Virus record (IMG/VR): IMGVR_UViG_3300017560_000307
DNA length: 64,000 nucleotides
Strand: one strand, 5' to 3'
DNA from: a virus
Lineage: Duplodnaviria; Heunggongvirae; Uroviricota; Caudoviricetes
Both the position numbers and the translations under genes were made by a program. The notes beneath the pieces are model-generated. The model was given only the letters and a program-made list of their open reading frames with translations, was not told the origin of the DNA and did no database searches. Each line of letters begins with the position of its first letter. Position 1 is the stretch's first letter. Below are positions 23,963 through 58,232 of this stretch, piece after piece.

Positions 23963-24265
23963 ATGACATTCGACAAACACAATCTCCCAACCAAATTCCT
24001 GCGTCCCCCCGTTAAAGCCACCCACGAACACGCTATAGAAACGTGGCCACGAAACTGGAGCGTCTATTTCATCGCCAGACATTGGAGTGGGGGAGAGAAA
24101 GGCTGTCTGACCACGATTGCCAAGTGGTTACAGCAGGTCGATCCACAGCCCAAGCCTCTGACCCGCCAACGTGTACAGGCGATCCGGGACAGCGTGTCCT
24201 GGGCCTTGCGAGACTACTCCGACGGCGAGCTGGGCATAAACACCGACACTGACGCGGTAAAATAG
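23963..24265 (+). CDS. hypothetical protein
   Basis: 100 aa, directly downstream of the promoter. Confidence 0.45.
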   Translation: MTFDKHNLPTKFLRPPVKATHEHAIETWPRNWSVYFIARHWSGGEKGCLTTIAKWLQQVDPQPKPLTRQRVQAIRDSVSWALRDYSDGELGINTDTDAVK

Positions 24266-24392
24266 ACATGTAACCATTTAAACATCTGTACATCTAGCGG
24301 CGTCATCTTCCCCCTTAGGTGGCGTTGCTTGACCTACAGATGTTTAGGGGACCATCAGGGAACATTGCCACCGGTAATCGACTCCCGCTGTT

Positions 24393-24938
24393 ATGACCTT
24401 ATCGGAATACTCAAGAGCCGTGGCCAGCGTCCTTCTTGGCCTGGCCTCGCTCTTCGGTTCATTGCCACCAGCCCTGCCGGCGGCCGAGCCAATCATCATC
24501 ACTCCCAGCAACACTGATCTTGTTTTTGCGGCCACACCACCGGAAACGCATATCCAGAAAACGCAGATTACATCTGAAGTTATTGCTCCCGAACCAGATA
24601 CACGACATATCCCATTGGCTATGCCAACTCCTAATACACCCGCCTCTGGCGGGAACAAATATGAATGGATGGAGGCAGCTGGAATACCCGAATCAGATTG
24701 GCAATACGTTGATTTCATCATCACCAGGGAGAGTGGGTGGCGATACACGGCCGTCAATAGCAGTTCAGGAGCGACTGGACTTTGCCAGGCACTCCCTGGA
24801 TCCAAGATGGCTTCAGTGGGAGCGGACTACCTCACAAATCCTGTGACTCAGCTGAGATGGTGCCACTCATATGCGATCCAGAGGTATCGGGGTTGGTACA
24901 GCTCATACCAATTTTGGCTGGCCAATCATTGGTGGTGA
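24393..24938 (+). CDS. secreted transglycosylase-like (Rpf/3D-type lysozyme-like) protein
   Basis: N-terminal signal peptide. The C-terminal domain IITRESGWRYTAVNSSSGATGLCQ resembles the transglycosylase-like ESG…GL.Q motif. Confidence 0.5.
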   Translation: MTLSEYSRAVASVLLGLASLFGSLPPALPAAEPIIITPSNTDLVFAATPPETHIQKTQITSEVIAPEPDTRHIPLAMPTPNTPASGGNKYEWMEAAGIPESDWQYVDFIITRESGWRYTAVNSSSGATGLCQALPGSKMASVGADYLTNPVTQLRWCHSYAIQRYRGWYSSYQFWLANHWW

Positions 24939-24967
24939 GAAGGGAGCTCTATTAAAAGGAAGACACC

Positions 24968-25243
24968 ATGATCCGCCTCCACCGTTTTGATCAGTACTCG
25001 ATCCTACTATGGTGGTCAAAGAGGCCTTCAGCGCATCGCCAGGATCTGCTCTATGTAGCTGAGATGGCACGATCATACCAGGTGGATCCCCAAGACCTGG
25101 CGATACCCAAACTCCGACGATTTATCCGCAAGCTACTCCGAAGACACCGGCTAATTCCAACCAATCGACCACCAACCGATGCCGACTACCAGGCAGCCAA
25201 GGAGACGTTTCTGGAATGGTGGTACGGCCAGGACATCATCTAA
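24968..25243 (+). CDS. hypothetical protein
   Basis: 91 aa. Confidence 0.4.
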   Translation: MIRLHRFDQYSILLWWSKRPSAHRQDLLYVAEMARSYQVDPQDLAIPKLRRFIRKLLRRHRLIPTNRPPTDADYQAAKETFLEWWYGQDII

Positions 25244-25391
25244 ATCTATGAAAGCACTCAAGACCACAAAGACCAGACGAATTCCACACTACAAAAAGAC
25301 CTGCAAGACGTGTGGCCGCAGGCATTATCACTTTGAATATGCAAATTGCCAGACCGCCAAGTGGCAGCTAGCCAAGGAGGAGGATGTTTGA
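25179..25391 (+). CDS. small zinc-ribbon protein (probable start ATG about 25248, 47 aa)
   Basis: CKTCGRRHYHFEYANC. Overlaps the rusA start. Confidence 0.35.
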   Translation: MPTTRQPRRRFWNGGTARTSSKSMKALKTTKTRRIPHYKKTCKTCGRRHYHFEYANCQTAKWQLAKEEDV

Positions 25392-25791
25392 GTGGTCGGC
25401 GGTCATCGAAGGCATCCGGCCGATCAGCAAGAAAAACTCAAGGCGTAACTTCCGCAATCGATCATTGCCATCCGTGGCGCATGAGAAATTCCACGCTGAA
25501 GCATTCCCCATCATTTATCAACAAAGGCCATCTACGCCCCTCACAGGAGCGACCGTGGCCATTATTCATGTCTACTTAAAAGGAAGGCTGGATATTGACT
25601 GGGATAATGTCGGCGCCAGCTGGTGTGACTTGCTGCAAGATGCTGGAGTGATTGAGAACGACGCCCAGATTCGCATGGGAACGGTAATCAAGCATCCTGG
25701 CTCGGCCGACTGGAGATCAGAGATCCACTTGCTGAACTGGGATGATGTAATCAAGGAACCAGACGAGCTTCTCAGTCTTATCCTTCAATAG
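25384..25791 (+). CDS. rusA: RusA-family Holliday junction resolvase
   Basis: GRLDIDWDNVGASWCDLLQDAGVIENDAQI matches the RusA D-x-D-N and catalytic region. Confidence 0.55.
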   Translation: MFEWSAVIEGIRPISKKNSRRNFRNRSLPSVAHEKFHAEAFPIIYQQRPSTPLTGATVAIIHVYLKGRLDIDWDNVGASWCDLLQDAGVIENDAQIRMGTVIKHPGSADWRSEIHLLNWDDVIKEPDELLSLILQ

Positions 25792-25864
25792 TGGGTTTTG
25801 GTTGTCGTGAGGCTGCCAAATTCGCACAATCCTCGTTATACGAATAATCAGGTTATCCGCGTCT

Positions 25865-26548: not shown

Positions 26549-27142
26549 TTGTACGTTTTTGAGCTACTGGGAAGAATAATCATGCTGATCGGCTACGCTC
26601 GCGTCTCAACTGGCGACCAGACACTGGATTTACAAACCGACGCTCTCACCTCAACTGGCTGCGACCAAATTTTCACCGATATGACATCAGGAGCCAAAGC
26701 TCACAGACCAGGATTGGATGAAGCTATCAAGTACGTCCGACCCGGCGACACACTGGTAGTCTGGCGGCTTGATCGTCTCGGTCGCTCGCTTCGTCACCTG
26801 ATCGAAACCGTCAATGACCTGGAAGCTCGCGGCGTCGGGTTCCGTTCCCTCACGGAGTCGATCGACACCACCACGCCTGGTGGCAAGTTGATCTTCCATA
26901 TCTTCGCGTCCCTGGCAGAGTTCGAGCGGGCCCTGATTCAGGAACGCACCAACGCCGGTTTGGCAGCAGCTCGAGCTCGAGGCCGGGTTGGTGGCCGACC
27001 GAAGAAGCTGACGGACAAGCAGGTGGCTCTGGCCAAGCGGATGCATGCCGACAAACAAACAGACATCGCCACCATCTGTCAGACGCTGGGGATCTCCAAG
27101 TCGACACTGTATCGAATACTCAATGAGCCTTCTTCGTCATAG
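26549..27142 (+). CDS. small serine recombinase (resolvase/invertase family) with C-terminal HTH; probable start ATG 26582
   Basis: MLIGYARVSTGDQ carries the catalytic Ser, followed by GDTLVVWRLDRLGRS. C-terminal HTH ATICQTLGISKSTLYR. Confidence 0.7.
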   Translation: MYVFELLGRIIMLIGYARVSTGDQTLDLQTDALTSTGCDQIFTDMTSGAKAHRPGLDEAIKYVRPGDTLVVWRLDRLGRSLRHLIETVNDLEARGVGFRSLTESIDTTTPGGKLIFHIFASLAEFERALIQERTNAGLAAARARGRVGGRPKKLTDKQVALAKRMHADKQTDIATICQTLGISKSTLYRILNEPSSS

Positions 27143-27230: not shown

Positions 27231-27728
27231 CTACCCAATATCCTCGACCAATTCCTTGAGCCTCGCCTCCCCAAAAGGTTTCCACTCCGGATCCCCGAAC
27301 ATCACATGGTTGACTCCAGACATGTACCGGATACGAGGCTTCCAGTGAGTGAAGGTGACGCGATCGAACGTATCGACCTGGAGTCTCCCCCACTCTCCTT
27401 CATGCCCTGGATAATGTTCAACCAGGATCAAGTCTTCTGCCTGATCGAGCCAACCCGGCAAGAACTTGGCAATTAGTCGCGGGTACAGTTCTGGCGCAGC
27501 ACCGGTGATACTGGTGCCTTCGTTGTCATCACATTCGCTAACCAGGACCAACGGAGCCAGACCGGGACCGGTATAGATGCGGACACGGCAATGCGCCATT
27601 ATCAGATTCCGCCCCTGATAAGCGAAGATCTCATCAATGACGTTGGTGCGTTTCACTGCCTTCTCCTTGAAAACTGCTTCTTGATTACATAAACATATTG
27701 ATGGTAAAATGGTTATACATCCAGACAT
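27231..27728 (-). CDS. hypothetical protein
   Basis: 165 aa. Its upstream region at 27722-27776 holds palindromic operator-like repeats. Confidence 0.4.
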   Translation of the reverse strand: MSGCITILPSICLCNQEAVFKEKAVKRTNVIDEIFAYQGRNLIMAHCRVRIYTGPGLAPLVLVSECDDNEGTSITGAAPELYPRLIAKFLPGWLDQAEDLILVEHYPGHEGEWGRLQVDTFDRVTFTHWKPRIRYMSGVNHVMFGDPEWKPFGEARLKELVEDIG

Positions 27729-27776
27729 TAAGATTTTTCAATGTCTATACATCGAGATGTTTAAACATCTCGATGG
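27722..27776. promoter_or_regulatory. operator-like palindromes (AGACATT-n10-AATGTCT and 26-bp perfect palindrome CATCGAGATGTTTAAACATCTCGATG)
   Basis: Perfect inverted repeats built on the ACATC/GATGT half-site that recurs across the window. Confidence 0.5.
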
Positions 27777-27864
27777 CTCGGAATGTCATTTAGGGATGCG
27801 CATGGTGCGAAGCTGGTCTCCAAAACCGGCCGCAAGGGATTTCGACTATCTCCGTCCCTGCCAT

Positions 27865-27937
27865 AGCGGGTTGGAGTAACAGTAACTCGGAAGGCTCATA
27901 ATCTTCGTCTATCTCGGTGCAAATCCGAGACCCGCAA
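27865..27937 (+). tRNA. tRNA-Met: tRNA-Met/Ile2 (CAT)
   Basis: Cloverleaf by hand. D-arm GAGT/ACTC, anticodon loop CTCATAA, T-arm CTCGG-TGCAAAT-CCGAG, CCA encoded. Mismatch at acceptor pair 1:72. Confidence 0.6.
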
Positions 27938-27946
27938 CCAATATAC

Positions 27947-28017
27947 CGACTGATGGCCGATTGGCTAGGCACGCGATTGCAAACCGTGGAATCCCCGTTC
28001 GATTCGGGGTCAGTCGT
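27947..28017 (+). tRNA. tRNA-Cys: tRNA-Cys (GCA)
   Basis: Acceptor CGACTGA/TCAGTCG, anticodon loop TTGCAAA, T-arm CCCCG-TTCGATT-CGGGG, CCA encoded. Short D-stem. Confidence 0.55.
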
Positions 28018-28021
28018 CCAT

Positions 28022-28094
28022 ACGCTCATAGCTCAGTGAATAGAGCAGTTGCCTTCGAAGCAGCAGGTCGGAGGTTTGAATCCTTCTGGGCGTA
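28022..28094 (+). tRNA. tRNA-Arg: tRNA-Arg (TCG)
   Basis: D-arm AGCTCAGTGAATAGAGC, anticodon loop CTTCGAA, T-loop TTTGAAT, CCA encoded. Confidence 0.65.
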
Positions 28095-28099
28095 CCAAT

Positions 28100-28172
28100 G
28101 CTTCCTTAGCTCATCAGGTAGAGCGGCGCACTTGTAATGCGCTGGTACGGGGTTCGAGTCCTCGAGGAAGCC
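28100..28172 (+). tRNA. tRNA-Thr: tRNA-Thr (TGT)
   Basis: Acceptor GCTTCCT/AGGAAGC, anticodon stem-loop GCGCA-CTTGTAA-TGCGC, T-loop TTCGAGT. Confidence 0.65.
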
Positions 28173-28176
28173 CCCT

Positions 28177-28250
28177 CTTGGCGTAGAGTAGCGGACGTAC
28201 TCGCTTCCCTTGGAAGGAAGAAATCGCTCGTTCGAATCGAGCCGCCTTGA
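28177..28250 (+). tRNA. tRNA-Pro: tRNA-Pro (TGG), acceptor stem with two U-U mismatches
   Basis: D-arm GAGT/ACTC, anticodon CTTCC-CTTGGAA-GGAAG, T-arm GCTCG-TTCGAAT-CGAGC, CCA encoded. Acceptor pairs 2:71 and 3:70 are mismatched, so it may be a pseudo-tRNA. Confidence 0.45.
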
Positions 28251-28254
28251 CCAT

Positions 28255-28326
28255 GGGTCTCTAGCACAACGATAGTGCAGCATCCCTGCAAGATGAAGGT
28301 TCTCAGTTTGAATCTGAGGAGATCCA
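28255..28326 (+). tRNA. tRNA-Ala: tRNA-Ala (TGC)
   Basis: Acceptor GGGTCTC/GAGATCC, D-arm GCAC/GTGC, anticodon loop CCTGCAA (C at position 33), T-arm CTCAG-TTTGAAT-CTGAG, CCA encoded. Confidence 0.5.
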
Positions 28327-28333
28327 CCAATTC

Positions 28334-28407
28334 GGGCTCGTCGCATAGCGGCCTATTGCAGCGGACTCTTAATCCGCCTTTCCCTGGTTCAAATCCAGGC
28401 GAGCTCA
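28334..28407 (+). tRNA. tRNA-Lys: tRNA-Lys (CTT)
   Basis: Anticodon stem-loop GCGGA-CTCTTAA-TCCGC, T-arm CCTGG-TTCAAAT-CCAGG, CCA encoded. Confidence 0.65.
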
Positions 28408-28414
28408 CCAGTTT

Positions 28415-28485
28415 GGGGATGTAGTGAAATGGCATCACGCTTGGTTTTCAACCAGGTATCCAGGGGTCAGAACCCTGCTTCCCTA
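28415..28485 (+). tRNA. tRNA-Glu: tRNA-Glu (TTC)
   Basis: D-arm GTGA/TCAC, anticodon CTTGG-TTTTCAA-CCAGG, T-arm CAGGG-GTCAGAA-CCCTG, CCA encoded. One acceptor mismatch. Confidence 0.5.
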
Positions 28486-28491
28486 CCATGT

Positions 28492-28564
28492 GTCCCTGTC
28501 GTCTAGAGGACCAGGACACCACCCTCTCAAGGTGGAAACCGGGGATCGTGACCCCGTGGGGATA
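28492..28564 (+). tRNA. tRNA-Glu: tRNA-Glu (CTC)
   Basis: Bacterial tRNA-Glu-like D-arm GTCTAGAGGACCAGGAC, anticodon CCACC-CTCTCAA-GGTGG, T-arm CGGGG-ATCGTGA-CCCCG, CCA encoded. Three G-U pairs in the acceptor. Confidence 0.5.
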
Positions 28565-28571
28565 CCAATAT

Positions 28572-28643
28572 GCCTTCCTAGCTCAGAGGCAGAGCAGCGT
28601 CTTTACACGGCGACGGTCGGGATTTCAAAATTCTCGGAGGGTA
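28572..28643 (+). tRNA. tRNA-Val: tRNA-Val (TAC)
   Basis: D-arm AGCTCAGAGGCAGAGC, anticodon loop TTTACAC, CCA encoded. Imperfect T-stem. Confidence 0.45.
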
Positions 28644-28650
28644 CCAGTGA

Positions 28651-28722
28651 CCCGTTGTGATGAAATTGGCATCATGCCTCCCTGTTAAGGAGAGATTCTA
28701 GGTTCAAATCCTAGCATCGGGG
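28651..28722 (+). tRNA. tRNA-Asn: tRNA-Asn (GTT)
   Basis: D-arm ATGA/TCAT, anticodon CCTCC-CTGTTAA-GGAGA, T-arm CTAGG-TTCAAAT-CCTAG, CCA encoded. Confidence 0.55.
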
Positions 28723-28728
28723 CCATAT

Positions 28729-28800
28729 ATCCGCGTAGCTCAAGGGACAGAGTGCCACTCTGCGAAGGTGATGATGCATGTTCGATTCATGCCGTGGATA
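28729..28800 (+). tRNA. tRNA-Arg: tRNA-Arg (GCG)
   Basis: Acceptor ATCCGCG/CGTGGAT, anticodon loop CTGCGAA, T-arm GCATG-TTCGATT-CATGC, CCA encoded. Confidence 0.5.
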
Positions 28801-28806
28801 CCATTT

Positions 28807-28878
28807 GCGATCATAGCTCAGTGGTAGAGCGCAGCCTTGTCACGGCTGAGGCCGGCGGATCGTTCCCGCCTGGTCGCG
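28807..28878 (+). tRNA. tRNA-Asp: tRNA-Asp (GTC)
   Basis: D-arm AGCTCAGTGGTAGAGC, anticodon CAGCC-TTGTCAC-GGCTG, T-arm GGCGG-ATCGTTC-CCGCC, CCA encoded. Confidence 0.65.
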
Positions 28879-29187
28879 CCAGTTTGGATTGGTTGACTTG
28901 TAAAGCAATATGTGTTCAAATCTTAGCCCCTGAACCAAGTCTTGGATTGGTGCTCCACAGATTTATGCCCCTCATGGGATATGTCGCACGCCCTTTGGTA
29001 ACGTCCACTCAAACATCCCATCATCAAGACATCTTTCCATCTTCCTGTCTTCCTGTCTTTCCATCTAAACATCAAAACGTTTTGCCTCCCATACATCTTG
29101 TCGTCAGTAATGCTTGCCATCCAGCAGGCAAAACAGCCTCCCTTTCCTTCCGATCCTCCGCCCCGCCCTATGTCTTTTTGACACATC

Positions 29188-32100
29188 TTGTCTCCAAAAG
29201 AACATTTGTTCTACGATCATTTCACGCCACAAGGCGTGATTCTGTGTTGGCATGACTGGAGGCGCTGTGTGGCCTATACCGAACTCCATCTCCATACCGC
29301 CTTTTCTTTCCTTGATGGTGCGTCCCTACCCGAGGAGATCGTCGCCCAGGCCACCGCCTACGGATACCGGTCCCTGGCTATCACCGATCACGACGGGCTT
29401 TATGGCGCCATGGAGTTCGCCCAGGCAGCACGCGCCGCCGGTATCACGCCCATCACCGGTGCCGAGATCACCCTTGACGACGGCTCACATCTCACCCTGC
29501 TCGCGGAATCCCGCACTGGCTACGGCAATCTCTGTCGCCTGCTCACCGATAGCAAGCATGGCAGGCCACCCGCCCCGGTCCCCGTACGATCCGATCCTCC
29601 TACCGTACACCCGGTCCTCAAAACGTCTGATCTCGCCAGTTATGCCGAGGGGCTGATCCTGCTCACCGGGTGCCGCAACGGCCAACTGGCCCGCGCCATT
29701 GACGAGCATCGGCTATACGATGCCGAAACCATCCTCTCGACCTACATCGCCTGGTTCGGCCAGGACAATGTCATCGTTGAGCTCCAGCAAAACTACGTTT
29801 TTGGTGACACGCCTCGTATCGCCCGTCTCGTGGCCCTCGCCGATCGGTTCGGAGTGCGCTACGCCGCCACCGGCAATGTGCACTATCACCTGCAGGAACG
29901 TCATCGCCTGCAGGATGTCCTGGTCGCCATCGCCCACCGGGCGACCCTGGATACCTCACATCGGGAACGCCGACCGAACGCTCACTTCCATCTCCGCACC
30001 CCGGAGGAGATGGCCGCTATCTTCGCTGACTACCCGGAAGCGATCCGCACGACAGAGATCATCGCCGAACGCTGCGCCGCCTTCGACCTCACACAAGATT
30101 TACAGTACGAATTTCCGGATTATGAAGCTGGCACAGGGGAATCACCGGATGCCTTTCTCTCCCGGGTGTGCCATGAGGCATTCGCCGATCGATACAGATC
30201 ATCATCGCCAACCATGCGGGATAAGGCCTTCACCCAATTGCAAGAGGAACTGAGGTTGATTGCGCTGCATGGGTTGGCAGGATTCTTTCTGCTTTACCGG
30301 GATTTGCTGAATCTCGCCCGCGATGTCGCCGCTGAGCTCCGAGGTCGTGAAGCCACCGGCTCCCGTAAATTCCTGCCTCCGGGTCGCGGCCGTGGATCAT
30401 CCGTGAGTTCGATTGTGTGCTATTTGACGGGGCTATCTCCGGTCGATCCCCTCGCCCATGATTTGTACCTGGGAAGGTTCCTTAATGAGGAGTTGCCATC
30501 AATCCCAGATATTGATATCGACTTCCCGCGCGAAATCCGCGAACGCATGATCGAACGCGTCTACGAGGTCTACGGTGCGGACCGGGTTGCCCTGGTCTGT
30601 GCTTTCTCCACCTACCGCCTCCGCAGCGCCGTACGGGATGTGGGCAAAACCCTCGGCCTTCCCCTGACCGATCTGGACCGGATTGCCAAACTCAGCGAAC
30701 CACGCTCCGCCGATGGCCTCGCCGAAGAACTGGATCGATTACCGGAATATGCCGCCCGCAAGAACACCCCGCCCTGGTGCTACCTGATCGACCTTGCCAA
30801 ACAACTCGCCGGCTTTCCCCGTCACGTCACCCAGCACGTCGGGGGGATGATTATCTCGGCCACGCCACTCAATGAAATCGTCCCGATCCAGCCCGCCGCC
30901 ATGGATGGCCGCTATATCTGTCAATGGGACAAGGACTCAACCAGAGACGCTCACTTCGTCAAGATTGACTTCCTCGCCCTGGGCATGCTCTCGTTAGTGG
31001 AAGAATGCCTCGATCTGATCGACGCCTCCGGACGCCAACCGATAGATTTAAGTCGCATCGATTTCAACGACCCCAACGTCTTTCATATGATCCAGGAGGG
31101 CGACACCATCGGTGTATTCCAGGTCGAGAGCCGTGCCCAGATCCAGATGATCCGCCGCACCAAACCGGAAAGTCTGGCGGATTTGATCGTTCAGGTAGCA
31201 ATCGTCCGCCCAGGGCCAATCATCGGTGGGGCCGTCGCCCCATTCGTCGAGAGGCGGATCAATCCCCATTACCAGACCGTCTATGACCACCCCAAACTCG
31301 AGCCGGTTCTAAAAGAGACGTTGGGGGTCATCCTCTACCAGGAACAGGTTTTGCAGGTAGCCGAAGTCATCGCCGGATTCACGCCTGGCCAGGCCGATCA
31401 ATTGCGTCGGGCCATGACCCGCAAACGATCGCACGAAGCCATGGAATCCATGCGACAGGATTTTATTACCGGTGCCGAGGGTGAAGGGATTACCCCCGAA
31501 CTAGCCAGCGACATCTTCACCAAACTGGCCGGATTTGCCGATTATGGATTCCCGAAGAGCCACGCGGCGGCCTTCGGTCTCCTCGCCTACCAGTCGTGCT
31601 GGCTCAAGCACTACTATCCAGCCGAGTTTCTCTGTGCCCTTCTCAATAACCAGCCTATGGGGTTCTACGCCCCGCATGTCCTGATCAACGACGCCAAACG
31701 TCACGGCACTCGCGTCCTCCGACCGGATATCAATGCCAGCCATCTGGAATGCACCGTTGAAGGCAAGCGCACCGTCCGGATCGGCCTCACGTTCGTCAAA
31801 GGGCTATCGGAAGATGCCGCCCTGCGCATCGCCGGGGAGCGTCAGCTCAACGGTCCGTATCGTTCTCTCGCCGATCTTATCCGACGGGTCGCCCTCCGCC
31901 CGGAGGCCCAGCAGAACCTGATCGCCGCGGGCGCCTGCGACTGCTTCGGTTTGCAACGACGCGAAATGCTGTGGCAGATCGGGCTATTCGTGTCACCGAA
32001 GAGATTTGGCGCCAGGAGACGACGGGGAAAACATCCGGGGCAGCAACTCCCTCTGGCATTACCCACCATCCAGGATCAGGTGACTCTTCCCCGCACCACG

Positions 32101-32643: not shown

Positions 32644-32693
32644 TTAATCCTTGAAAGATTGTAGCTGTATCCGAGTCTCCTGCCATCTCACCA

Positions 32694-32769
32694 TTTAGAC
32701 ATCCAGATGTTTAACCATTTCTCCATCACTACTGCATAGCATCTTGGAATATAGACATCCCAACATCTC
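32694..32769. promoter_or_regulatory. operator-like ACATC/GATGT inverted repeats downstream of dnaE
   Basis: TTTAGACATCCAGATGTTTAACC and ATAGACATCCCAACATCTCC. Confidence 0.4.
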
Positions 32770-32955
32770 CAAATTCGAGTGAAAAAGAAAACCCCGGCAT
32801 CAACCGGGGTTCAGGGCACTCTTGAGATAGCAGCACATCTCTTCCTTTTAATATCACAACCGATTGATACTCTCTGCGACCATCTCCCGCACCTGATTGT
32901 GCCTCATCAGCGGATCGAAATTCACAATCCAGTCCTCCCCTGCCTTGGCTCCATG

Positions 32956-33246
32956 TTACTGGCCAAGGATATGCCCCAGTTCCGCCTTCGTATAATAAGA
33001 TTCCTCATTTTCAAGTCTGTCCGTCGAACCACCCTCAAAGAAGCGGATTTCATCCTGATACTCTTTCCAGGCAACTGGGTTGGCCCGAAGTCGCTCGACT
33101 GAATTCTCAACCTCCCGCCAGAATTTCTCCTTCTGGTACTGAGAGAGTGCGTCCTCAATCACCTGACTGATGGGTCGTCCTTCTTCAATGGAAAGCGCCC
33201 GCAATGTGGCGGCCAATTGACTATCGACTCGTATGGCGGTGGTCAT
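32956..33246 (-). CDS. ribbon-helix-helix (CopG/Arc-like) DNA-binding protein
   Basis: N-terminus MTTAIRVDSQLAATLRALSIEEGRPISQVIEDAL is RHH-like. Transcribed divergently from parA across an operator-rich region. Confidence 0.5.
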   Translation of the reverse strand: MTTAIRVDSQLAATLRALSIEEGRPISQVIEDALSQYQKEKFWREVENSVERLRANPVAWKEYQDEIRFFEGGSTDRLENEESYYTKAELGHILGQ

Positions 33247-33344
33247 TGTTCACATCCTTTCATGGGTCTGTCCTATATTCTCTCAAATCTCCCACCCCAT
33301 CCATGACTTCGTGTACACCTCCATATATCTCATGTCGATATGGT

Positions 33345-33615
33345 GACACATCCAGATGTCTTGATGTCTACATTCTAACCAGTATTGACATCATGAAATC
33401 TTACCGTCTTACCATCTCACCATCATAGACTCTTAACTTCTAACTGGCTTTAGGGTTAACCATTCTTATGTTTAACCACTAAAACTTGCCAACATATTCC
33501 CATTCAGACATCCCGATGTGTGGCCATTCATATGGCTAGACATCTGGATGGAAAAACATTTGGATGTCTGGCAAACTGTACGTACAAGACATGTTGACAT
33601 CGAGACATCTCGACG
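33345..33615. promoter_or_regulatory. cluster of at least 6 ACATC-n2-GATGT operator-like inverted repeats (candidate parS/operator region)
   Basis: GACACATCCAGATGTCTTGATGTCTAC, CAGACATCCCGATGTG, CTAGACATCTGGATGG, TTGGATGTCTGG, AAGACATGTTGACATCGAGACATCTCGAC. Lies between the RHH gene and parA. Confidence 0.5.
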
Positions 33616-34421
33616 CCTACTGTCTGCTATCGATGAGTGACGCTGGTCACAAGGACGGGAGACACATGCCAACGAAGCAACGCATTATCGCAATCGCGTC
33701 GCAGAAGGGTGGGGTGGGGAAAACCACTTCCACACTCAATATCTCGGCAGAGCTGGCGGCTGCGGGTCAACGAGTACTGATGGTCGATCTCGATCCCCAG
33801 GGCCACCTGGCTGAGGGATTGGGTATTAGCGCAGTAGATCTCGAGCACGAAATATCTGAAGTTCTCTTGCGCGAGACCTCGCTCGCTGACATCATCCTGC
33901 AGGTCAGGGAAAATCTCGACCTGGCACCTGCCAATATCCGGCTGGCCACCATCGAGGGGGTCTTGTTTGGTGCTCCACGTCGGGAAGACCGTCTCAAGCA
34001 GGCGCTGGAGACCGTCCAGGGCCGCTACGACGTCGTTTTGATCGATTGCCCACCCAGCCTTGGCAATCTCACCGTCAACGCCTTCTCGGCCGCCACAGAG
34101 GTTCTCATTCCCATGGCTGTGGAGTTCTACTCCCTGTTGGGGGTGCAGCTACTCCTGGACTCCATCACGAATGCCAGGATGGAGATCAACCCCAAGTTAC
34201 ACCTGCTCGGTATTCTACCCACCAGGATGAACCGAACCAATCATGCCGCCGCGGTACTGGAGAAAGCCCGGACGGACTGGCCAGAGGTTCATCTCTTCGA
34301 GCCGCCGATACCAGAAGCCGTCGCGGTGAGAGACAGCGTGGCAGCCGGGCAACCGCTCCGGGAGTTCAACCCGGTGTCCCCCGCAACTAAAGCCTATGCC
34401 ACGATTGCCAAGGAGTTCTAG
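33564..34421 (+). CDS. parA: ParA-family partition ATPase (likely start ATG 33666)
   Basis: Deviant Walker A IAIASQKGGVGKTT. 251 aa from the probable start. Confidence 0.75.
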   Translation: MSGKLYVQDMLTSRHLDAYCLLSMSDAGHKDGRHMPTKQRIIAIASQKGGVGKTTSTLNISAELAAAGQRVLMVDLDPQGHLAEGLGISAVDLEHEISEVLLRETSLADIILQVRENLDLAPANIRLATIEGVLFGAPRREDRLKQALETVQGRYDVVLIDCPPSLGNLTVNAFSAATEVLIPMAVEFYSLLGVQLLLDSITNARMEINPKLHLLGILPTRMNRTNHAAAVLEKARTDWPEVHLFEPPIPEAVAVRDSVAAGQPLREFNPVSPATKAYATIAKEF

Positions 34422-34423
34422 TC

Positions 34424-34696
34424 ATGGCCCGTAAACCATCACCTGTCGCCTCCCGCCAGACGAATAAGCCGGCCGCGGATGAGTTTTGGCAGAAGTCTCC
34501 TGATGAAGATGAAACTGATGAGATTATAGAAATCCAACCCAAAACCAAACGAACGTATCACCTGCCAGATACCACTCCCCAGCTTCTGATGAAAATCCAG
34601 CTGAAGAGATATTTGGATACTGGCAAAAAGACGGACTACTCGGATCTGGTGAGTGAGGCTGTTGAATACCTCGCCGCAGCCGAAGAGGTTAAATAG
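34424..34696 (+). CDS. small partition-associated (ParB/ParG-like) protein
   Basis: 90 aa, immediately downstream of parA with a 2-nt gap. Confidence 0.4.
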   Translation: MARKPSPVASRQTNKPAADEFWQKSPDEDETDEIIEIQPKTKRTYHLPDTTPQLLMKIQLKRYLDTGKKTDYSDLVSEAVEYLAAAEEVK

Positions 34697-34880: not shown

Positions 34881-35789
34881 ATGGCTGAAGACGAACTCAA
34901 GTCAAAAACCTTCGAGGGATTCTCCAGTCCCAACTATACCCAGGTGCCCGACGCCCTGTTCGACTACCTCTTGCCCGATCTCTCCGAGATAGAAATCAAG
35001 GTGCTGCTCTATATCATCCGCCGCACCTTCGGTTTCAAAAAGGACTCCGACAACATTTCCCTCCGTCAGCTCTCCGAAGGGATCACCACCAAAGACGGGA
35101 AGCAGCTGGATCGGGGAACCGGACTCTCCAAGTCCGGGGTTACCAAAGCCCTCCTGAGCCTACGCAAAAAAGGCATTCTGATCCGCTATCGCAACTCGGA
35201 CACGGTGCGGGGATCCACCCCCACCACCTACCGGTTACGCATGGCCGGTGATCCCCTGGATAACCAGGATGAAGTGCCCGATGTGGGAGATTACCCCCTG
35301 TCCACAGGTGTAGACACCCCTGTCCACAGGCGTGGACACCCCCTGTCCACAGGTATAGACACCCCTGTCCACGGTGGTAGACAGCCCCTGTCCACAGGCG
35401 TGGACACACAAGAAACAGTTAAACAACAAACAGAAGTTAGAGAAAGAGATCTCGAATTTTCGAATGGTCGGGTGGTCAGAATTAATTACTCGGAGACCCG
35501 GCGCGCGCTCCAACCGTACATCGAAGACTTTGCGCGAGAATTCGGGGATGAGGCCAAACTGTCATCCTCACTCAGCCGCGCCGTCAATCTCTGCGATCGC
35601 AGCGGTCTGGACATCGATGAGTTTATTGATGTGCTCCTAGCTGCCCGAGCCAAGACCAAGGAAAAATCGGCATCGATCAGCAAGCAAGCCGGCGATGGGG
35701 GAATGTGGGGAACGAAGAAAAACCGGATGCCCTATTGGTTCAAAATCGTCGAAGACATGCTTGGTCTCAAGGACCAGCAATCTGGATAG
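34881..35789 (+). CDS. phage replisome organizer / replication initiator (winged-helix N-terminal domain) with internal iteron array
   Basis: IEIKVLLYIIRRTFGFKK…ISLRQLSEGI…KSGVTKALLSLRKKGIL matches the phage replisome-organizer N-terminal domain. The central region PLSTGVDTPVH x4 is encoded by DNA iterons. Confidence 0.6.
   Translation: MAEDELKSKTFEGFSSPNYTQVPDALFDYLLPDLSEIEIKVLLYIIRRTFGFKKDSDNISLRQLSEGITTKDGKQLDRGTGLSKSGVTKALLSLRKKGILIRYRNSDTVRGSTPTTYRLRMAGDPLDNQDEVPDVGDYPLSTGVDTPVHRRGHPLSTGIDTPVHGGRQPLSTGVDTQETVKQQTEVRERDLEFSNGRVVRINYSETRRALQPYIEDFAREFGDEAKLSSSLSRAVNLCDRSGLDIDEFIDVLLAARAKTKEKSASISKQAGDGGMWGTKKNRMPYWFKIVEDMLGLKDQQSG
35294..35407 (+). repeat. five tandem 22-23 bp iterons (CCCCTGTCCACAGGYRTRGACAC) inside the rep gene; candidate origin
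   Basis: Direct repeats at about 35294, 35318, 35340, 35363 and 35385. The core TGTCCACAGG is near-palindromic. Confidence 0.6.
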
Positions 35790-35818
35790 CCATCAAGACA
35801 TCCTGATGCCTTGATGGC
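35789..35818 (+). terminator. hairpin GCCATCAAG-n12-CTTGATGGC after the rep gene
   Basis: 9-bp stem whose loop contains GACATCCTGATG. No strong T-run. Confidence 0.3.
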
Positions 35819-37626: not shown

Positions 37627-37704
37627 TGAAGTGCTGACCCGGCCCGGTTGACTATCGGGCCGGGCGATCCTGACAGGCAATCCCCATAGGCAAGGAGATC
37701 ACTG

Positions 37705-44209: not shown

Positions 44210-44536
44210 ATGAAACATTACCTAGCAGACTTCATTTGCCAGGACGGAGCCCACCAGCATAGCTACCAAGCTCTTATCCGGGCCTATGACATGGAGCAAG
44301 CCAAAACCATTGCCCAGTCCCACGAATACGACTGTGGTGATGATGACGGCCATGACTGGGACTACAGTGACAACCTTCCTCTTACGGCCTTTGGAGACGG
44401 ATTGACAGCCTGCCGGCTACGAGATGTCTCCGAGATAGATGTTACCGCCTATGATGCCTTGAAAGCGCTGGGCGTGGTCACAGAGATTGACCTGGTTGTG
44501 AGAGTCGCCATTCCAGAAAAACATACGAATGTCTAG
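44210..44536 (+). CDS. hypothetical protein
   Basis: 108 aa. Confidence 0.45.
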   Translation: MKHYLADFICQDGAHQHSYQALIRAYDMEQAKTIAQSHEYDCGDDDGHDWDYSDNLPLTAFGDGLTACRLRDVSEIDVTAYDALKALGVVTEIDLVVRVAIPEKHTNV

Positions 44537-44563
44537 GTGTTTAGATTTTTAGATGTCTGGATG
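44526..44563. promoter_or_regulatory. operator-like ACATC/GATGT repeats
   Basis: GAATGTCTAGGTGTTTAGATTTTTAGATGTCTGGATGG. Confidence 0.4.
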
Positions 44564-44564
44564 G

Positions 44565-44626
44565 GTAAGGAGGAGGGGAGAGCGGTTCAAAAGAGATATG
44601 CCTGAATTGGGCAGAAATGGAGATGA
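44565..44626 (+). promoter_or_regulatory. conserved leader motif copy D
   Basis: GGGGAGAGCGG…GATATGCCTGAATTGGGCAGAAATGGAG then ATG. Confidence 0.4.
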
Positions 44627-56242: not shown

Positions 56243-56245
56243 GTT

Positions 56246-56644
56246 ATGGGACATTATCTATTGCTCATTACAACGACTTCGGAGAGTACAACGTCGGCCG
56301 CGGTGCGTGAAGAGGTGACGGTTCGCCTGGAAAATGACCCTTCCTTTATAGGTGGGGGAGTGGACGGATGTCTGTTCTCGATCGTGTCGCCCCTTGCAGA
56401 CTACTTTTCCGTCGGGGGTTGGTTCTCTGGCTACCTGATAGGAAGGGATGATGAGACTGGCTACGTGGAAGGTGGCTCAGATGATGACGCTATGCTCATC
56501 ACGCCACAGCTCTATCACGACCACCTCAAGCAATGGGAGGGCAGAACGTTGGCTGACACCGATTGTGTTGACTTCCAGGGAGATGTAGTGAGTCCTGATT
56601 TCATCGGTCGCAAGTACCTGGTGGTAATCGATTTTCACCAGTAG
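56246..56644 (+). CDS. hypothetical protein
   Basis: 132 aa. Confidence 0.4.
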   Translation: MGHYLLLITTTSESTTSAAVREEVTVRLENDPSFIGGGVDGCLFSIVSPLADYFSVGGWFSGYLIGRDDETGYVEGGSDDDAMLITPQLYHDHLKQWEGRTLADTDCVDFQGDVVSPDFIGRKYLVVIDFHQ

Positions 56645-56693
56645 AGAGACATGTACCCCGGCTTGGTTCATCCAGGTCGGGGGTTTCTATGTA

Positions 56694-56722
56694 TTGACAT
56701 ATTATATTCGGGGGCGTATAAG
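56694..56722 (+). promoter_or_regulatory. sigma70-type promoter, family copy (TTGACA-N17-TATAAG)
   Basis: GTATTGACATATTATATTCGGGGGCGTATAAGTAAGGTAT. Confidence 0.55.
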
Positions 56723-56798
56723 TAAGGTATGGAACAAACAATACGACTAGATTGCAGGAAGTGTCACCGGTGGTGGGAATGGCCCATCAATCGATTCT

Positions 56799-57032
56799 GT
56801 GACCAATGTAAGCATTGCGGGGAACGGAACTGGAGTTGTCCGGAGGAGGGGAATGAAAATCACGATTGGGGGCAACAACGAATCAATGAGCCACACTATT
56901 AGTGACGGAGCGACTGTCGCTAAAGTGCTTCAGGTTTTCGTCGGTCTACTCATCGCCTATGGCTTTCATCCAAGCAGAATCAATCAGTATTTTGTGGACG
57001 AAGAGTCGCCACTGGAGTGGAACACGGAGTAG
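56799..57032 (+). CDS. hypothetical small protein
   Basis: 77 aa with weak RBS. May be part of a longer non-coding transcript. Confidence 0.3.
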   Translation: MTNVSIAGNGTGVVRRRGMKITIGGNNESMSHTISDGATVAKVLQVFVGLLIAYGFHPSRINQYFVDEESPLEWNTE

Positions 57033-57049
57033 TCAGTCTCTTGCGCTGT

Positions 57050-58180
57050 GTTTGTTCGGACTCCACCAAGCCGGCAAGCACAGCGGAGGGGATTGAAGCC
57101 AGAGAGCTTCCACAGTCATCACGGCACAGTGTTAGGTCTGTTGTGTGTTTTGGTACGAGATGGTCGTACTCCGTGGGGTTGTTGCCTAAGACGTAAAAAC
57201 TCCCTGCCGTCAAAACGGCACCTCTCCGACGAGATTTTCCATGTCTGTGTCGGGCTTGCCTAGAACCCTTGATCGGGGAAGCGGACATGATGAGCCAGCA
57301 ACCTGCCTTCATGGCGGGGATGTGGCGGATTAGCTTCGGCGGCTGCCTACTGGTTCGCTGGTTGGACTCTGGAGGGGATAGTGCTCACCTTCGTCAAAGG
57401 GTGTTGGGCCGTCCGGACGCCTCTCCAGATTCGAGCCAGGTAACTCAAGAAAACCCACCTCATATGCGCGTGTGCAGAGGGTAAAACAGACTTCGGAGGT
57501 CTGGGGGAGGAACCGCGGAAGCGATCGACACACGCTCGAAACATCCTGGCCCGAATTTTGAAAGATGGAGTGAGAGTTGTCGCTAGACAACACTCCGGTG
57601 AGGCGGTTCGCTACCGCCATCGCAACCGGTGGGCGTTCTGGTGAGCACCTAGGGCAACAAGCCGAGGAGCTAAGTCCCTCGGGGCAATTCCTCTCCATCT
57701 TTCAGTGTTTGAACGTTCTCGCCAACCTCAAAAAGTGAACCGAGCGACCGGGGTGTCTCCCGATCACTCAGTCGTCCGGTGGTTTATTCCACCAGGCGAC
57801 TTGAGACACCAGGTTCGGGGTTGGCGAGAGGGCCCAGAATCCTAGCCAACTGCTTGATATAATGCATACAGCCATGCAGTACCCGGCCAGCGTTTTGAAA
57901 CACAATCGCTTCAAGCCAGACAAGAGCTTCCGAGTACTGCCGGGAGCTCTTTTTTGTTCCCAGGCCGACCGCAATCAGCAGTACCGGTGAACACAGCAAT
58001 GTCTGATGGATGCGGGATCTAAGGGTAGGTCCATAGGCAAAAACGGTTTGAACTTTCGCTCCCCTGAGCATGTGCCTGCCGCTGGATGTCCCCTGGTTGT
58101 ACCAGGTCGACAGACCAGCCTCTGCTTTGGGGCGTGAGAGCTTAATCCCTCTCTAATCGTCCCTTCACAACCTCATATTC
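57050..58180 (+). ncRNA. ORF-free, hairpin-rich region (candidate structured RNA or cis-element), internal terminator at 57924-57956
   Basis: Only short ORFs that conflict with each other. CTTCGG tetraloop hairpins, a tRNA T-arm-like GGCGG-TTCGCTA-CCGCC at about 57596-57612, and a terminator AGAGCT-n15-AGCTCT-TTTTTT. Confidence 0.2.
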
Positions 58181-58232
58181 TATGATGTCTAGATGTTTAG
58201 ATGTCAAGATGTTTAAGCTTCTAGATGTCTAA
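58181..58232. promoter_or_regulatory. dense array of AGATGT/ACATCT operator-like repeats
   Basis: ATGTCTAGATGTTTAGATGTCAAGATGTTTAAGCTTCTAGATGTCTAAACATCC, directly upstream of the gene at 58253. Confidence 0.5.

What the first reader, a model, noticed from the sequence alone, without database searches (positions are those of the whole stretch)
24263..58232. Dispersed operator-like palindromes built on ACATC/GATGT half-sites at eight or more loci
Inverted repeats of the form AGACATC-n2-GATGTCT, and tandem AGATGT arrays, occur at 24263-24356, 27722-27776, 32694-32769, 33345-33615, 35797-35812, 44526-44563 and 58181-58232. The 27722-27776 site includes a 26-bp perfect palindrome. The 33345-33615 site has six copies between the RHH gene and parA. 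The 58181-58232 site has four AGATGT repeats at 8-nt spacing. This resembles a global phage repressor regulon, as with P1 C1 operators, or a parS centromere. The divergently transcribed RHH protein at 32956-33246 is a candidate binder.
Basis: seen in the sequence. Interest (0 to 1): 0.6.

Follow-up and report, generated by a model that had tools for sequence, protein, structure and literature searches.

The report
Scattered partition-protein binding arrays, phage-plasmid
The scattered ACATC/GATGT repeats are real arrays of 8-bp units, and they most likely bind a small, previously unnamed partner protein of the element's ParA segregation ATPase, working much like known plasmid centromere/operator arrays but spread over at least nine sites of a phage-plasmid.

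Summary
The unit is a hexamer, (G/A)ACATC with degenerate NCATC variants. It occurs in either orientation and is spaced at exactly 8 bp. There are 32 core pairs at multiples of 8 bp, against 0.9 in shuffles. Nine non-coding loci carry arrays of about 4 to 30 units.

The best candidate binder is not the divergent RHH gene (32956-33246). It is the 90-aa ORF directly after parA (34424-34696). This ORF belongs to an unannotated family of at least 74 members, with a disordered basic tail and a predicted strand-helix-helix core. In ten relatives the parA, small ORF and repO module is conserved, and the six tested lack the RHH gene. Eight of the ten keep 8-bp-phased CATC units around a conserved parA promoter. 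A close variant differs by two 16-bp indels and by unit flips. RepO has its own 22-bp iterons.

The architecture matches ParG/parH-OF of TP228 and omega/parS of pSM19035, although there is no sequence homology to either. I read it as centromere plus operators. Binding and function are inferred, not shown. It is a new variant of a known kind, of moderate interest.

The parts
24263..24346 (.). Array A. Four in-phase units at 24263-24296 (TAGACATG, TAACCATT, TAAACATC, TGTACATC), plus one inverted unit at 24337-24346. It lies in the 127-bp gap between a 100-aa ORF and an SLT-domain (lysis-like) gene at 24393-24938.
   Evidence: Pfam SLT
27690..27777 (.). Array B. Six strong contiguous or near-contiguous units at 27714-27771 with weaker flanking units, including the 26-bp perfect palindrome at 27750-27775. 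It starts inside and directly after a promoter-like TTGATT-18-TAAAAT (27681-27710, + strand) and precedes a 13-tRNA array.
27865..28881 (+). Array of 13 tRNA genes directly downstream of array B. It is the candidate regulated unit.
   Evidence: ARAGORN; Rfam
29010..29121 (.). Four strong same-orientation units at spacings of 16, 40 and 24 bp, with degenerate NCATC units between them. It lies between the tRNA array and the dnaE-like gene (called start 29269). A TTGACA occurs at 29178.
32680..32767 (.). Array D. About 11 register positions with 3 strong units (7 in-phase CATC cores). It lies between the dnaE stop (32643) and the terminator of the RHH gene (32789-32812), so it sits between convergent genes.
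32956..33246 (-). It is not conserved in relatives and is probably a regulated passenger.
   Evidence: Pfam; PHROG; tblastn
33329..33568 (.). Arrays E1 and E2, which form one 8-bp register over about 240 bp (31 positions, 21 with PWM >=0, 8 with PWM >=8). This is the candidate main centromere.
33586..33623 (+). Array E3 (units at 33586, 33594, 33602), overlapping the conserved parA promoter. The -35 TTGACA is at 33594-33599, followed by an 18-bp spacer containing GAGACATC, and the -10 TACTGT is at 33618-33623. This is the candidate autoregulatory operator.
   Evidence: conserved in L006, L009, L011, L012, L014
33666..34421 (+). parA. A 251-aa Walker-type ATPase (AAA_31/CbiA/ParA) without an N-terminal HTH domain.
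34424..34696 (+). 90-aa candidate centromere-binding protein and regulator. Its start is 2 nt after the parA stop. Residues 1-40 form a disordered basic tail (MARKPSPVASR...). The invariant KRT-x-x-L strand is followed by two helices. The family has no Pfam, PHROG or NCBIfam model.
34881..35789 (+). repO-like initiator gene with its own internal origin iterons at 35293-35405 (about 5 copies of ACCCC(C)TGTCCACAGGYGTRGAC). This repeat family is separate from the ACATC arrays.
35787..35818 (.). Array F. Four units in a palindromic arrangement (GCCATC AA GACATC CT GATGCC TT GATGGC) at the 3' end of repO.
44518..44567 (.). Array G. Four to six contiguous same-orientation units, about 60 bp upstream of the ORF at 44627-44932.
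58182..58239 (.). Array H. Six units in seven consecutive registers (five in one orientation, one in the other), ending at the Shine-Dalgarno sequence of ORF 58253-58495. It contains a minus-strand TTGACA-19-TAGAAT that faces the divergent ORF 57784-58071. The downstream operon carries SSB-like, tRNA-like, Ro-like and RtcB-like genes.

Best explanation
The arrays are binding lattices for the 90-aa protein encoded directly after parA (34424-34696). I read this protein as the centromere-binding protein (CBP) of a type Ib-like ParA partition system carried by a phage-plasmid. The element has tail genes, a tRNA array, dnaE, ERF, parA and repO.

Proposed mechanism (inferred): each dimer of the strand-helix-helix domain inserts its paired beta-strands, carrying the invariant KRT-x-x-L, into the major groove at one NCATC hexamer. 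Dimers on neighbouring units, one every 8 bp and in either orientation, bind cooperatively and coat the array.

The 240-bp array upstream of parA (33329-33568), probably together with array D beyond the inserted RHH gene, is the centromere. From it the disordered basic N-terminal tail would stimulate the ParA ATPase. The three units over the -35 and spacer of the parA promoter would autoregulate parA and the CBP gene.

The other arrays lie before the tRNA array, dnaE, a lysis-like gene, an operon at 44.6 kb and an RNA-repair-like operon, and after repO. They would work as in pSM19035, serving as extra centromere-like sites that also repress or tune nearby promoters. That would couple expression of these modules to the CBP level, and hence to plasmid copy number.

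Shown here: the lattice and its statistics, the synteny, the conservation of the family and of the promoter with its phased units, and the separate RepO iterons.
Inferred: the fold, the binding, cooperativity, centromere function and regulation.
For: (1) Lattice. There are 32 core pairs at multiples of 8 bp against 0.9 expected. The register tables show mixed orientation and degenerate filler units.

(2) Location. All arrays lie in non-coding gaps, and the enrichment there has p = 2e-8.

(3) Gene context. parA encodes 251 aa with no HTH. The 90-aa ORF starts 2 nt after its stop.

(4) Conserved module. All ten relatives examined, with ParA 58-78% identical, carry parA followed by a small ORF, and a RepO-like gene follows in most. 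The small ORFs align, with an invariant KRT..L strand and a conserved N-terminal MAR/K..V.SR tail.

(5) Structure. AlphaFold2 on a 62-sequence alignment gives residues 1-40 disordered, 41-49 extended, and helices at 50-66 and 72-89, with block-mean pLDDT 88-95. This is the beta-alpha-alpha order of a ribbon-helix-helix monomer. The weak top Foldseek hits include the RHH antitoxin ParD2 and the TCP domain.

(6) Relatives' arrays. CATC/GATG cores within 400 bp upstream of parA are 8-bp phased in 8 of 10 relatives. Seven have p <= 0.016 each; L011 does not reach that with the CATC core and carries phased GACAT(T/G) units instead. A conserved TTGAC(A/T/G)-18-TAnnnT promoter lies 66-72 nt before parA, with units in or next to its spacer.

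(7) Dispersal elsewhere. Relatives L014 and L015 also carry extra arrays, for example between the CBP gene and repO.

(8) Close variant. L019 (ParA 96% identical) differs in this region by two indels of exactly 16 bp, which is two units. It also shows unit flips or replacements that keep the register, for example GAGACATC TCGACGCC becoming GAGATGGT TAGACATC.

(9) Other candidates. RHH96 is absent from six relatives. RepO has distinct 22-23-bp iterons inside its own gene, and the internal repeats differ among relatives.

(10) Precedent. ParG binds 8-bp-period boxes in direct and inverted orientation at both operator and centromere (PMC3130281). Omega binds 7-bp heptads at several promoter-overlapping parS sites, and at least 4 contiguous repeats are needed to activate ParA (PMC9499535). 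pCXC100 ParB binds 9-bp repeats and has no recognisable sequence motif (PMC3074162).
Against: - No binding data exist.
- RepO and ParA co-occur with the arrays just as the CBP does, so synteny alone does not single out the CBP.
- Two relatives (L013, L016) show no phased CATC cores upstream of parA.
- Array D lies between convergent genes and array C ends 57 bp upstream of the nearest -35-like hexamer, so a simple operator role does not fit every site.
- The promoter calls are consensus matches in an unknown host, and the 8-site promoter scan had no shuffle control. The wider region scan found 12 sites against 10 expected.
- No clear correlation was seen between variation in the beta-strand and variation in the motif.
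Confidence: 0.6

Rival explanations
1. The divergent 96-aa RHH_1 protein (32956-33246) binds the arrays as a global Arc- or C1-like prophage repressor.
For: It is the only protein near the sites with a significant DNA-binding domain match (RHH_1, E = 1.6e-6; Arc-like repressor PHROG). Its gene is flanked by arrays D and E and is divergent from parA. RHH proteins are known to bind short tandem units.
Against: tblastn finds no homologue in six relatives, yet four of these show 8-bp-phased CATC arrays upstream of parA at p <= 0.012 (L006, L009, L012, L014), and L011 carries phased GACAT(T/G) units. In L006, L011, L013 and L014 the gene upstream of parA is unrelated. It looks like an insertion that splits the centromere region, with its own terminator.
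Confidence: 0.12
2. A different regulator binds the arrays. It could be a lysogeny repressor encoded elsewhere on the roughly 125-kb element, one of the unannotated small ORFs next to sites G or H, or a host factor. In that case the link to parA is only that parA is one regulated operon among many.
For: Most arrays sit at 5' ends of transcription units of diverse function. About half of the element lies outside the window. Most small ORFs have no annotation.
Against: The phased arrays persist in relatives that share little more than the par-rep module, including contexts that look more like plasmid or chromosome than phage (L011, L012, L017). No HTH repressor or HTH-type ParB was found among about 45 window ORFs scanned. 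The 8-bp lattice of mixed orientation is typical of type Ib CBPs (PMC3130281, PMC9499535).
Confidence: 0.15
3. The units are iterons or accessory sites for the RepO-like initiator, marking origin or replication-control sequences.
For: repO is part of the conserved module and co-occurs with the arrays. Array F abuts the repO stop codon. L014 and L015 have arrays just upstream of repO.
Against: RepO has its own lambda-type iterons, 22-23 bp long and about 5 copies, inside its gene at 35293-35405. They show no resemblance to NCATC units. The internal repeats differ between relatives while the NCATC units persist. An 8-bp period and nine dispersed arrays are not iteron-like.
Confidence: 0.04
4. 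The pattern is a chance or compositional artefact.
For: Single ACATC pentamers are only modestly enriched (186 against 153 +/- 11). Many isolated PWM hits lie inside genes.
Against: Phased pairs number 32 against 0.88 +/- 0.96, with a maximum of 5 in 200 shuffles. Arrays number 8 against 0.3. There is non-coding enrichment at p = 2e-8, conservation in relatives and indels of 16 bp.
Confidence: 0.01

Closest known systems
omega (ParB) / delta (ParA) / parS of Streptococcus pyogenes plasmid pSM19035 (inc18)
   Same: A small Walker ParA is paired with a small CBP that has a disordered N-terminal tail and a C-terminal strand-helix-helix domain. The binding sites are arrays of short unspaced units in direct and inverted orientation. 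Several arrays are dispersed on the replicon and overlap promoters, so one protein is both centromere binder and global regulator. Arrays of 4 or more contiguous units are the functional form (PMC9499535, PMC2441792).
   Different: The unit is 8 bp with an NCATC core here, against the 7-bp WATCACW heptad. There is no detectable sequence similarity (hhalign probability 0.07). The CBP gene follows parA directly in one operon. There are at least nine arrays on a roughly 125-kb phage-plasmid, next to tRNA, dnaE, lysis-like and RNA-repair-like genes, rather than three kinds of promoter on a resistance plasmid. Nothing has been tested experimentally here.
ParG / ParF / parH-OF of plasmid TP228
   Same: The period is exactly 8 bp: a short core box plus spacer, in direct and inverted orientation. 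A promoter-proximal operator (8 boxes) and a distal centromere (12 boxes) lie upstream of parF-parG, comparable to E3 and E1/E2 here. One RHH dimer binds per box, and an arginine-finger-like flexible N-terminal tail is present. Box orientation can be changed without loss of function (PMC3130281).
   Different: The core is a 4-bp ACTC with AT-rich 4-bp spacers, against a 6-bp (G/A)ACATC with 2-bp spacers. There is no sequence similarity apart from a 4-residue 'IKR' stretch before the strand. I know of no dispersed ParG sites elsewhere on TP228 (not checked).
ParB of Leifsonia xyli plasmid pCXC100
   Same: It is a type Ib CBP that showed no recognisable sequence motif until its structure revealed an RHH. 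Its centromere is nine unspaced short repeats bound cooperatively (PMC3074162).
   Different: Its repeats are 9-bp direct repeats only, at a single locus.
Scattered centromere/operator sites of HTH-type ParB proteins: KorB OB sites of RK2 and the dispersed sop centromeres of phage-plasmid N15
   Same: Partition-protein binding sites are scattered across the genome rather than held at one locus (PMC5016525, citing Balzer 1992, Ravin & Lane 1999 and Grigoriev & Lobocka 2001). N15 is also a plasmid-prophage.
   Different: Those proteins are large HTH ParB proteins that bind single palindromes of about 13-16 bp. The sites here are multi-unit lattices.
Phage P1 C1 repressor operators
   Same: A plasmid-prophage carries many dispersed operator sites for one repressor.
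   Different: From my own knowledge, P1 operators are single 17-bp asymmetric sites bound by a C1 monomer. No C1-like protein was found among the ORFs scanned, although the window was not scanned exhaustively. The 8-bp lattice architecture is not C1-like.

Membership tests
Type Ib (small Walker ParA + small non-HTH CBP) plasmid partition system | A Walker-type ParA of about 200-290 aa that lacks the N-terminal HTH of type Ia ParA | tested here: met
   The ParA is 251 aa. The AAA_31/CbiA/ParA domains cover residues 5 to 250, and there is no extra N-terminal domain.
Type Ib (small Walker ParA + small non-HTH CBP) plasmid partition system | A small CBP gene immediately downstream of parA in the same operon | tested here: met
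   The 90-aa ORF starts 2 nt after the parA stop. The same arrangement is seen in ten relatives.
Type Ib (small Walker ParA + small non-HTH CBP) plasmid partition system | A centromere made of multiple short direct or inverted repeats next to, typically upstream of, the operon | tested here: met
   A 240-bp in-phase array and a promoter-proximal array lie upstream of parA. Phased units are found upstream of parA in 8 of 10 relatives.
Type Ib (small Walker ParA + small non-HTH CBP) plasmid partition system | The CBP folds as a dimeric ribbon-helix-helix with a flexible N-terminal tail | tested here: inconclusive
Type Ib (small Walker ParA + small non-HTH CBP) plasmid partition system | The CBP binds the repeats, stimulates the ParA ATPase and stabilises the replicon | not testable with these tools
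   This needs EMSA or footprinting, ATPase assays and plasmid-stability assays.
ParG family (TP228; PDB 1P94) | Detectable sequence homology to ParG | tested here: not met
   hhalign of the 62-sequence family profile against ParG gives probability 0.1 over 4 aligned columns. The ParG sequence was verified as identical to 1P94. No Pfam ParG hit was found in any of the 62 members.
Omega repressor family (pSM19035; PDB 1IRQ) | Detectable sequence homology to omega | tested here: not met
   hhalign gives probability 0.07. The omega sequence was verified as identical to 1IRQ. There are no Pfam hits.
Omega repressor family (pSM19035; PDB 1IRQ) | 7-bp WATCACW heptads | tested here: not met
   The period here is 8 bp and the core is NCATC.
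Pfam RHH_1 / CopG-Arc-MetJ superfamily (by sequence) | A match to an RHH profile | tested here: not met
   The 90-aa protein and 61 relatives have no RHH family hit at E <= 1, apart from one member with a weak BrnA hit at E = 0.063. The PDB sequence searches found nothing significant. The neighbouring 96-aa protein does match RHH_1.
ParB-CTPase / parS (type Ia, chromosomal type) | A ParB with HTH and ParB/Srx N-terminal domains, and a 16-bp palindromic parS | tested here: not met
   No ParBc-domain protein lies next to parA or among about 45 ORFs scanned. The sites are multi-unit lattices, not single palindromes.
Iterons of a lambda-O-type initiator | Direct repeats of about 17-22 bp at the origin, bound by the initiator | tested here: not met
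   A separate repeat family of 22-23 bp and about 5 copies lies inside repO at 35293-35405. The ACATC units have an 8-bp period and are dispersed.
P1 C1-type operator regulon | Single asymmetric 17-bp operators and a C1-family repressor | tested here: not met
   The site architecture is an array of 8-bp units. No C1-like protein was seen among the scanned ORFs, but the window was not searched exhaustively for one.

The most novel reading that the evidence does not exclude
The partner protein of a ParA ATPase has become the master regulator of a roughly 125-kb phage-plasmid. A single lattice-forming protein from a previously unrecognised family would act as centromere binder. It would also silence or tune at least eight operons, including a 13-tRNA array, a dnaE-type polymerase, a lysis-like gene and a Ro/RtcB-like RNA-repair module. 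Plasmid copy number, segregation and the lysogenic expression programme would then be read from one protein's concentration. Loss of the plasmid's CBP pool could, for example, de-repress the lytic or replication modules.
Probability: 0.3. Interest if true: 0.65.

Novelty: new variant of a known kind. Interest (0 to 1): 0.45.

Why it matters
How phage-plasmids coordinate plasmid maintenance with phage gene expression is known for only a few models, such as P1 and N15, and both use HTH-type ParB proteins.

This element would be a plasmid-prophage in which an omega/ParG-style lattice-binding protein has many genome-wide arrays. I found no description of such a case in the library searched (a limited search). 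The protein also belongs to a family of at least 74 members with no Pfam, PHROG or NCBIfam model and no solved structure. This family marks a conserved parA-CBP-repO replicon module in uncultured bacteria.

The prediction is easy to test. The 90-aa protein is easy to purify, the sites are short and synthetic, and the unit, period and orientation rules are explicit. The 8-bp lattice also offers a natural comparison with the 7-bp (omega), 8-bp (ParG) and 9-bp (pCXC100) systems. That comparison bears on how RHH dimers set their spacing and how contiguous arrays activate ParA.

If the protein is only a partition and autoregulation system with extra centromeres, the result is still a clean annotation, but an ordinary one.

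Tried and rejected
- **Close relatives by nucleotide search.** Megablast of 28000-40000 against the phage and plasmid collections found nothing.
- **Relatives of the 90-aa protein.** tblastn against phages and plasmids found nothing. A single-sequence word search found only the protein itself. Exhaustive phmmer against 1.84 billion representatives found only 20 hits.
- **Related loci.** ParA and RHH96 searches in viral contigs gave no confirmed relatives. Alignments A3 and A2 were too divergent for pattern search. A4 found no locus in GTDB genomes and only one in JGI metagenomes.
- **Promoter and terminator scan.** The consensus scan found no more sites than shuffles did (12 against 10), so promoter overlap rests on hand-checked hexamers and on conservation in relatives.
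- **Rfam.** A scan of the whole window found only tRNAs.
- **Other possible sites.** The AT-rich gap at 17604-17933 and a 2-3-unit cluster at 21493-21556 inside the ERF gene were considered. They were not accepted, because the units are weak or out of phase, or lie in coding sequence.
- **Recognition code.** I looked for a simple code linking the residue after KRT(F/Y) to the motif variant (ACATC, CCATC or GACAT). No consistent pattern emerged.

Full report
**1. The observation**

All of them contain ACATC/GATGT elements.

A listing of every ACATC/GATGT cluster and a position-weight matrix built from 34 units show the underlying repeat. It is a hexamer core (G/A)ACATC, usually preceded by TA and followed by two variable bases. 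The core-to-core distance is exactly 8 bp whether neighbouring units point the same way or opposite ways. 'AGACATC-n2-GATGTCT' palindromes and 'AGATGT at 8-nt spacing' are therefore the same lattice.

Register tables show that strong units are interspersed with degenerate NCATC units (CCATC, TCATC, ACATT) in the same frame.

Statistics:
- Using only the plain pattern [AG]ACATC on both strands, 32 pairs lie at multiples of 8 bp (<=64 bp). In 200 dinucleotide-preserving shuffles the figure is 0.88 +/- 0.96, with a maximum of 5.
- In a de novo scan of all 5-mers, ACATC ranks first for 8-bp-phased pairs.
- Arrays of three or more in-phase CATC cores number 8, against 0.3 in shuffles.
- Of the 26 strongest PWM hits, 16 fall in the 13.8% of the window left non-coding by a deliberately generous ORF map (p = 2e-8).

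- The 26-bp palindrome is at 27750-27775.
- The parA-upstream region carries about 30 registers in one frame (33329-33568), plus a 3-unit array over the parA promoter, rather than six copies.
- There is an additional array at 29010-29121.

**2. Context**

The window is part of a phage-plasmid-like element. It has no close relative in the phage or plasmid collections. The same sequence occurs on metagenome contigs of up to 125 kb.

Relevant genes:

| Coordinates | Strand | Gene |
|---|---|---|
| 27865-28881 | + | 13-tRNA array |
| 29269-32643 | + | DnaE-type Pol III alpha |
| 32956-33246 | - | 96-aa RHH_1 protein, with its own terminator |
| 33666-34421 | + | parA, 251 aa, no HTH |
| 34424-34696 | + | 90-aa ORF with no family match |
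| 34881-35789 | + | lambda-O-like initiator (repO) |
| 39011-40147 | + | Replic_Relax protein |
| 26549-27142 | + | resolvase |
| 21100-22017 | - | ERF recombinase |
| 18701-19588 | - | Band_7 (SPFH) protein |

An SSB-like, Ro-like and RtcB-like module lies after 58.2 kb.

Position of the arrays:
- A lies before an SLT-domain gene.
- B lies directly after a promoter-like TTGATT-18-TAAAAT and before the tRNA array.
- C lies between the tRNA array and dnaE.
- D lies between the convergent dnaE and RHH genes.
- E lies between the RHH gene and parA.
- F lies at the end of repO.
- G lies before the ORF at 44627.
- H lies between divergent ORFs at 58.1-58.25 kb.

**3. Which protein binds?**

The 90-aa ORF is an orphan by word search. 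ParA homologues at 58-78% identity, however, led to loci with the same module: parA, a small ORF of 84-121 aa, and in most of them a repO-like gene (L015).

The small ORFs are homologous. A profile search recovered 74 members. None carries a Pfam domain and all that have a name are called hypothetical.

The family alignment shows:
- a conserved N-terminal basic tail (MAR/K-x-SPVASR...F);
- a variable acidic linker;
- an invariant (R)-x-KRT-(F/Y)-(H/Y)-L segment;
- two conserved helical segments, ending in TG-x-KPELS-x-LVSEAI-RLL.

AlphaFold2 on this alignment gives residues 1-40 disordered, 41-49 extended, and helices at 50-66 and 72-89, with block-mean pLDDT of 88-95. That is the element order of a ribbon-helix-helix monomer with a ParG- or omega-like tail.

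I could not confirm the fold by comparison:
- Foldseek gave only E >= 0.26, although RHH proteins such as ParD2 and the TCP domain are among the top weak PDB hits.
- hhalign against verified ParG and omega sequences was negative.

**4. Comparative test**

- In 8 of 10 relatives, CATC/GATG cores within 400 bp upstream of parA are in 8-bp phase. Seven of these have p <= 0.016 each against shuffles. The eighth, L011, does not reach that with the CATC core (p about 0.12) and carries phased GACAT(T/G) units instead. L013 and L016 show no phased CATC cores.
- A TTGAC(A/T/G)-18-TAnnnT promoter lies 66-72 nt before the parA start in the window and five relatives. NCATC units lie in or against its spacer.
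- The 96-aa RHH has no homologue in the six relatives tested.
- RepO is conserved too. In the window it has its own iterons inside the gene, five 22-23-bp copies of ACCCC(C)TGTCCACAGGYGTRGAC at 35293-35405. Relatives carry different internal repeats at the equivalent place, while the NCATC units persist.
- A close variant, L019 (ParA 96% identical), differs from the window in the parA-upstream region by two indels of exactly 16 bp. It also shows unit flips or replacements that keep the frame, for example TTGACATC-GAGACATC-TCGACGCC against TTGACATC-GAGATGGT-TAGACATC. This is what selection on a lattice, rather than on a specific sequence, would produce.
- L014 and L015 also have extra arrays outside the parA-upstream region, for example between the CBP gene and repO. 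Dispersal is therefore probably not unique to this element.

**5. Mechanism proposed**

The steps below are inferred unless marked as shown.

Dimers of the 90-aa protein recognise one NCATC hexamer each and polymerise cooperatively along the 8-bp lattice. The large array E1/E2 is the centromere, probably together with D, from which it is separated by the RHH gene. That gene is absent in the relatives tested and looks like an insertion. The N-terminal tail activates ParA. Array E3 autoregulates parA and the CBP gene.

The remaining arrays act as in pSM19035, where several parS arrays overlap promoters and the RHH ParB is both centromere binder and global regulator (PMC9499535). Arrays B, G and H have four or more contiguous units, which is the threshold reported for omega to activate its ParA (PMC9499535).

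Promoter overlap is supported for B, E3 and H. It is not evident for A or G, and only weak matches lie beside D and F. D cannot be a simple operator because it lies between convergent genes. I therefore leave open whether each dispersed array is a centromere, an operator or both.

**6. Comparison with known systems**

TP228 ParG is the closest in geometry. It has an 8-bp period, mixed orientation, and an operator plus centromere upstream of the operon (PMC3130281). Omega of pSM19035 is the closest in logic, with several dispersed promoter-overlapping arrays. pCXC100 ParB is the precedent for an RHH CBP that sequence methods cannot detect (PMC3074162). Scattered centromeres are also known for the HTH ParBs of RK2 and N15 (PMC5016525).

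The system here is not a sequence member of the ParG, omega or RHH_1 families. It meets the gene-order and repeat criteria of a type Ib system. The fold criterion is inconclusive, and the functional criteria cannot be tested here.

**7. Verdict**

This is a real and highly non-random feature. The P1 C1 analogy and the proposed binder are not supported.

The best explanation, at confidence 0.6, is an omega/ParG-like lattice bound by a new CBP family. That makes it a new variant of a known kind, of moderate interest (0.45). The interest would rise if the CBP proves to be the global regulator of the phage-plasmid.

Noticed in passing
window 59663-59881 and 60217-63707: Two tRNA-like elements were called by ARAGORN: 'tRNA-???' at 59663-59756 with an aberrant anticodon loop, and tRNA-Asn at 59806-59881. 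Rfam does not call either at gathering threshold. They sit just upstream of a PHROG_850 'RNA-binding protein' (493 aa, possibly Ro/TROVE-like) and an RtcB-type RNA ligase (PHROG_968, E = 1e-102). This resembles the bacterial Ro, Y-RNA (tRNA-like YrlA) and RtcB RNA-repair module, here on a phage-plasmid and downstream of array H.
   Followed up: partly
window 35293-35405: Five copies of a 22-23-bp iteron, ACCCC(C)TGTCCACAGGYGTRGAC, lie inside the repO-like gene. This looks like a lambda-type origin within the initiator gene. Relatives have different repeats at the equivalent position (L009 4639-4739, L012 11643-11685, L014 11495-11551, L006 2097-2183).
   Followed up: yes
window 27865-28881: A compact array of 13 tRNA genes (Met, Cys, Arg x2, Thr, Pro, Ala, Lys, Glu x2, Val, Asn, Asp) lies next to a DnaE-type Pol III alpha gene (29269-32643) on a phage-plasmid. 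The relative L009 also has tRNA-like sequence directly upstream of its parA (L009 about 2400-2700).
   Followed up: partly
window about 28528: The 125-kb ENA contig k141_473804, which carries the same element, ends at window position about 28528, inside the tRNA array. The window therefore extends beyond that contig's end. This suggests either a circular or permuted assembly, or an assembly break in the tRNA repeats.
   Followed up: no
L019 1-608 against window 33064-33670: In a variant with 96% identical ParA, the RHH-parA intergenic region is much more diverged than the flanking genes. It differs by two 16-bp indels, each equal to two repeat units.
   Followed up: yes
window 34832-34849 and 35781-35822: CTTGATGGCTGAC and CTTGATGGCTCAC elements flank the repO gene, with an 18-nt inverted repeat (83% complementary) 931 nt apart. 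One copy is part of array F. The significance is unknown.
   Followed up: no
window 18701-19588, 21100-22017, 26549-27142; L014 661-2825, 7814-8362: The window and relative L014 share Band_7, ERF recombinase and resolvase genes as well as the par-rep module. L014 (a 26-kb contig) is therefore a relative of the whole element, not only of its replicon.
   Followed up: partly
window 17604-17933: An unusually AT-rich 330-bp non-coding gap, including TATATGTATATATTAACATAATATAATACTAATG, lies between the tail-gene block and the leftward genes. It could be a regulatory or packaging-related region. It contains only isolated, out-of-phase motif hits.
   Followed up: no
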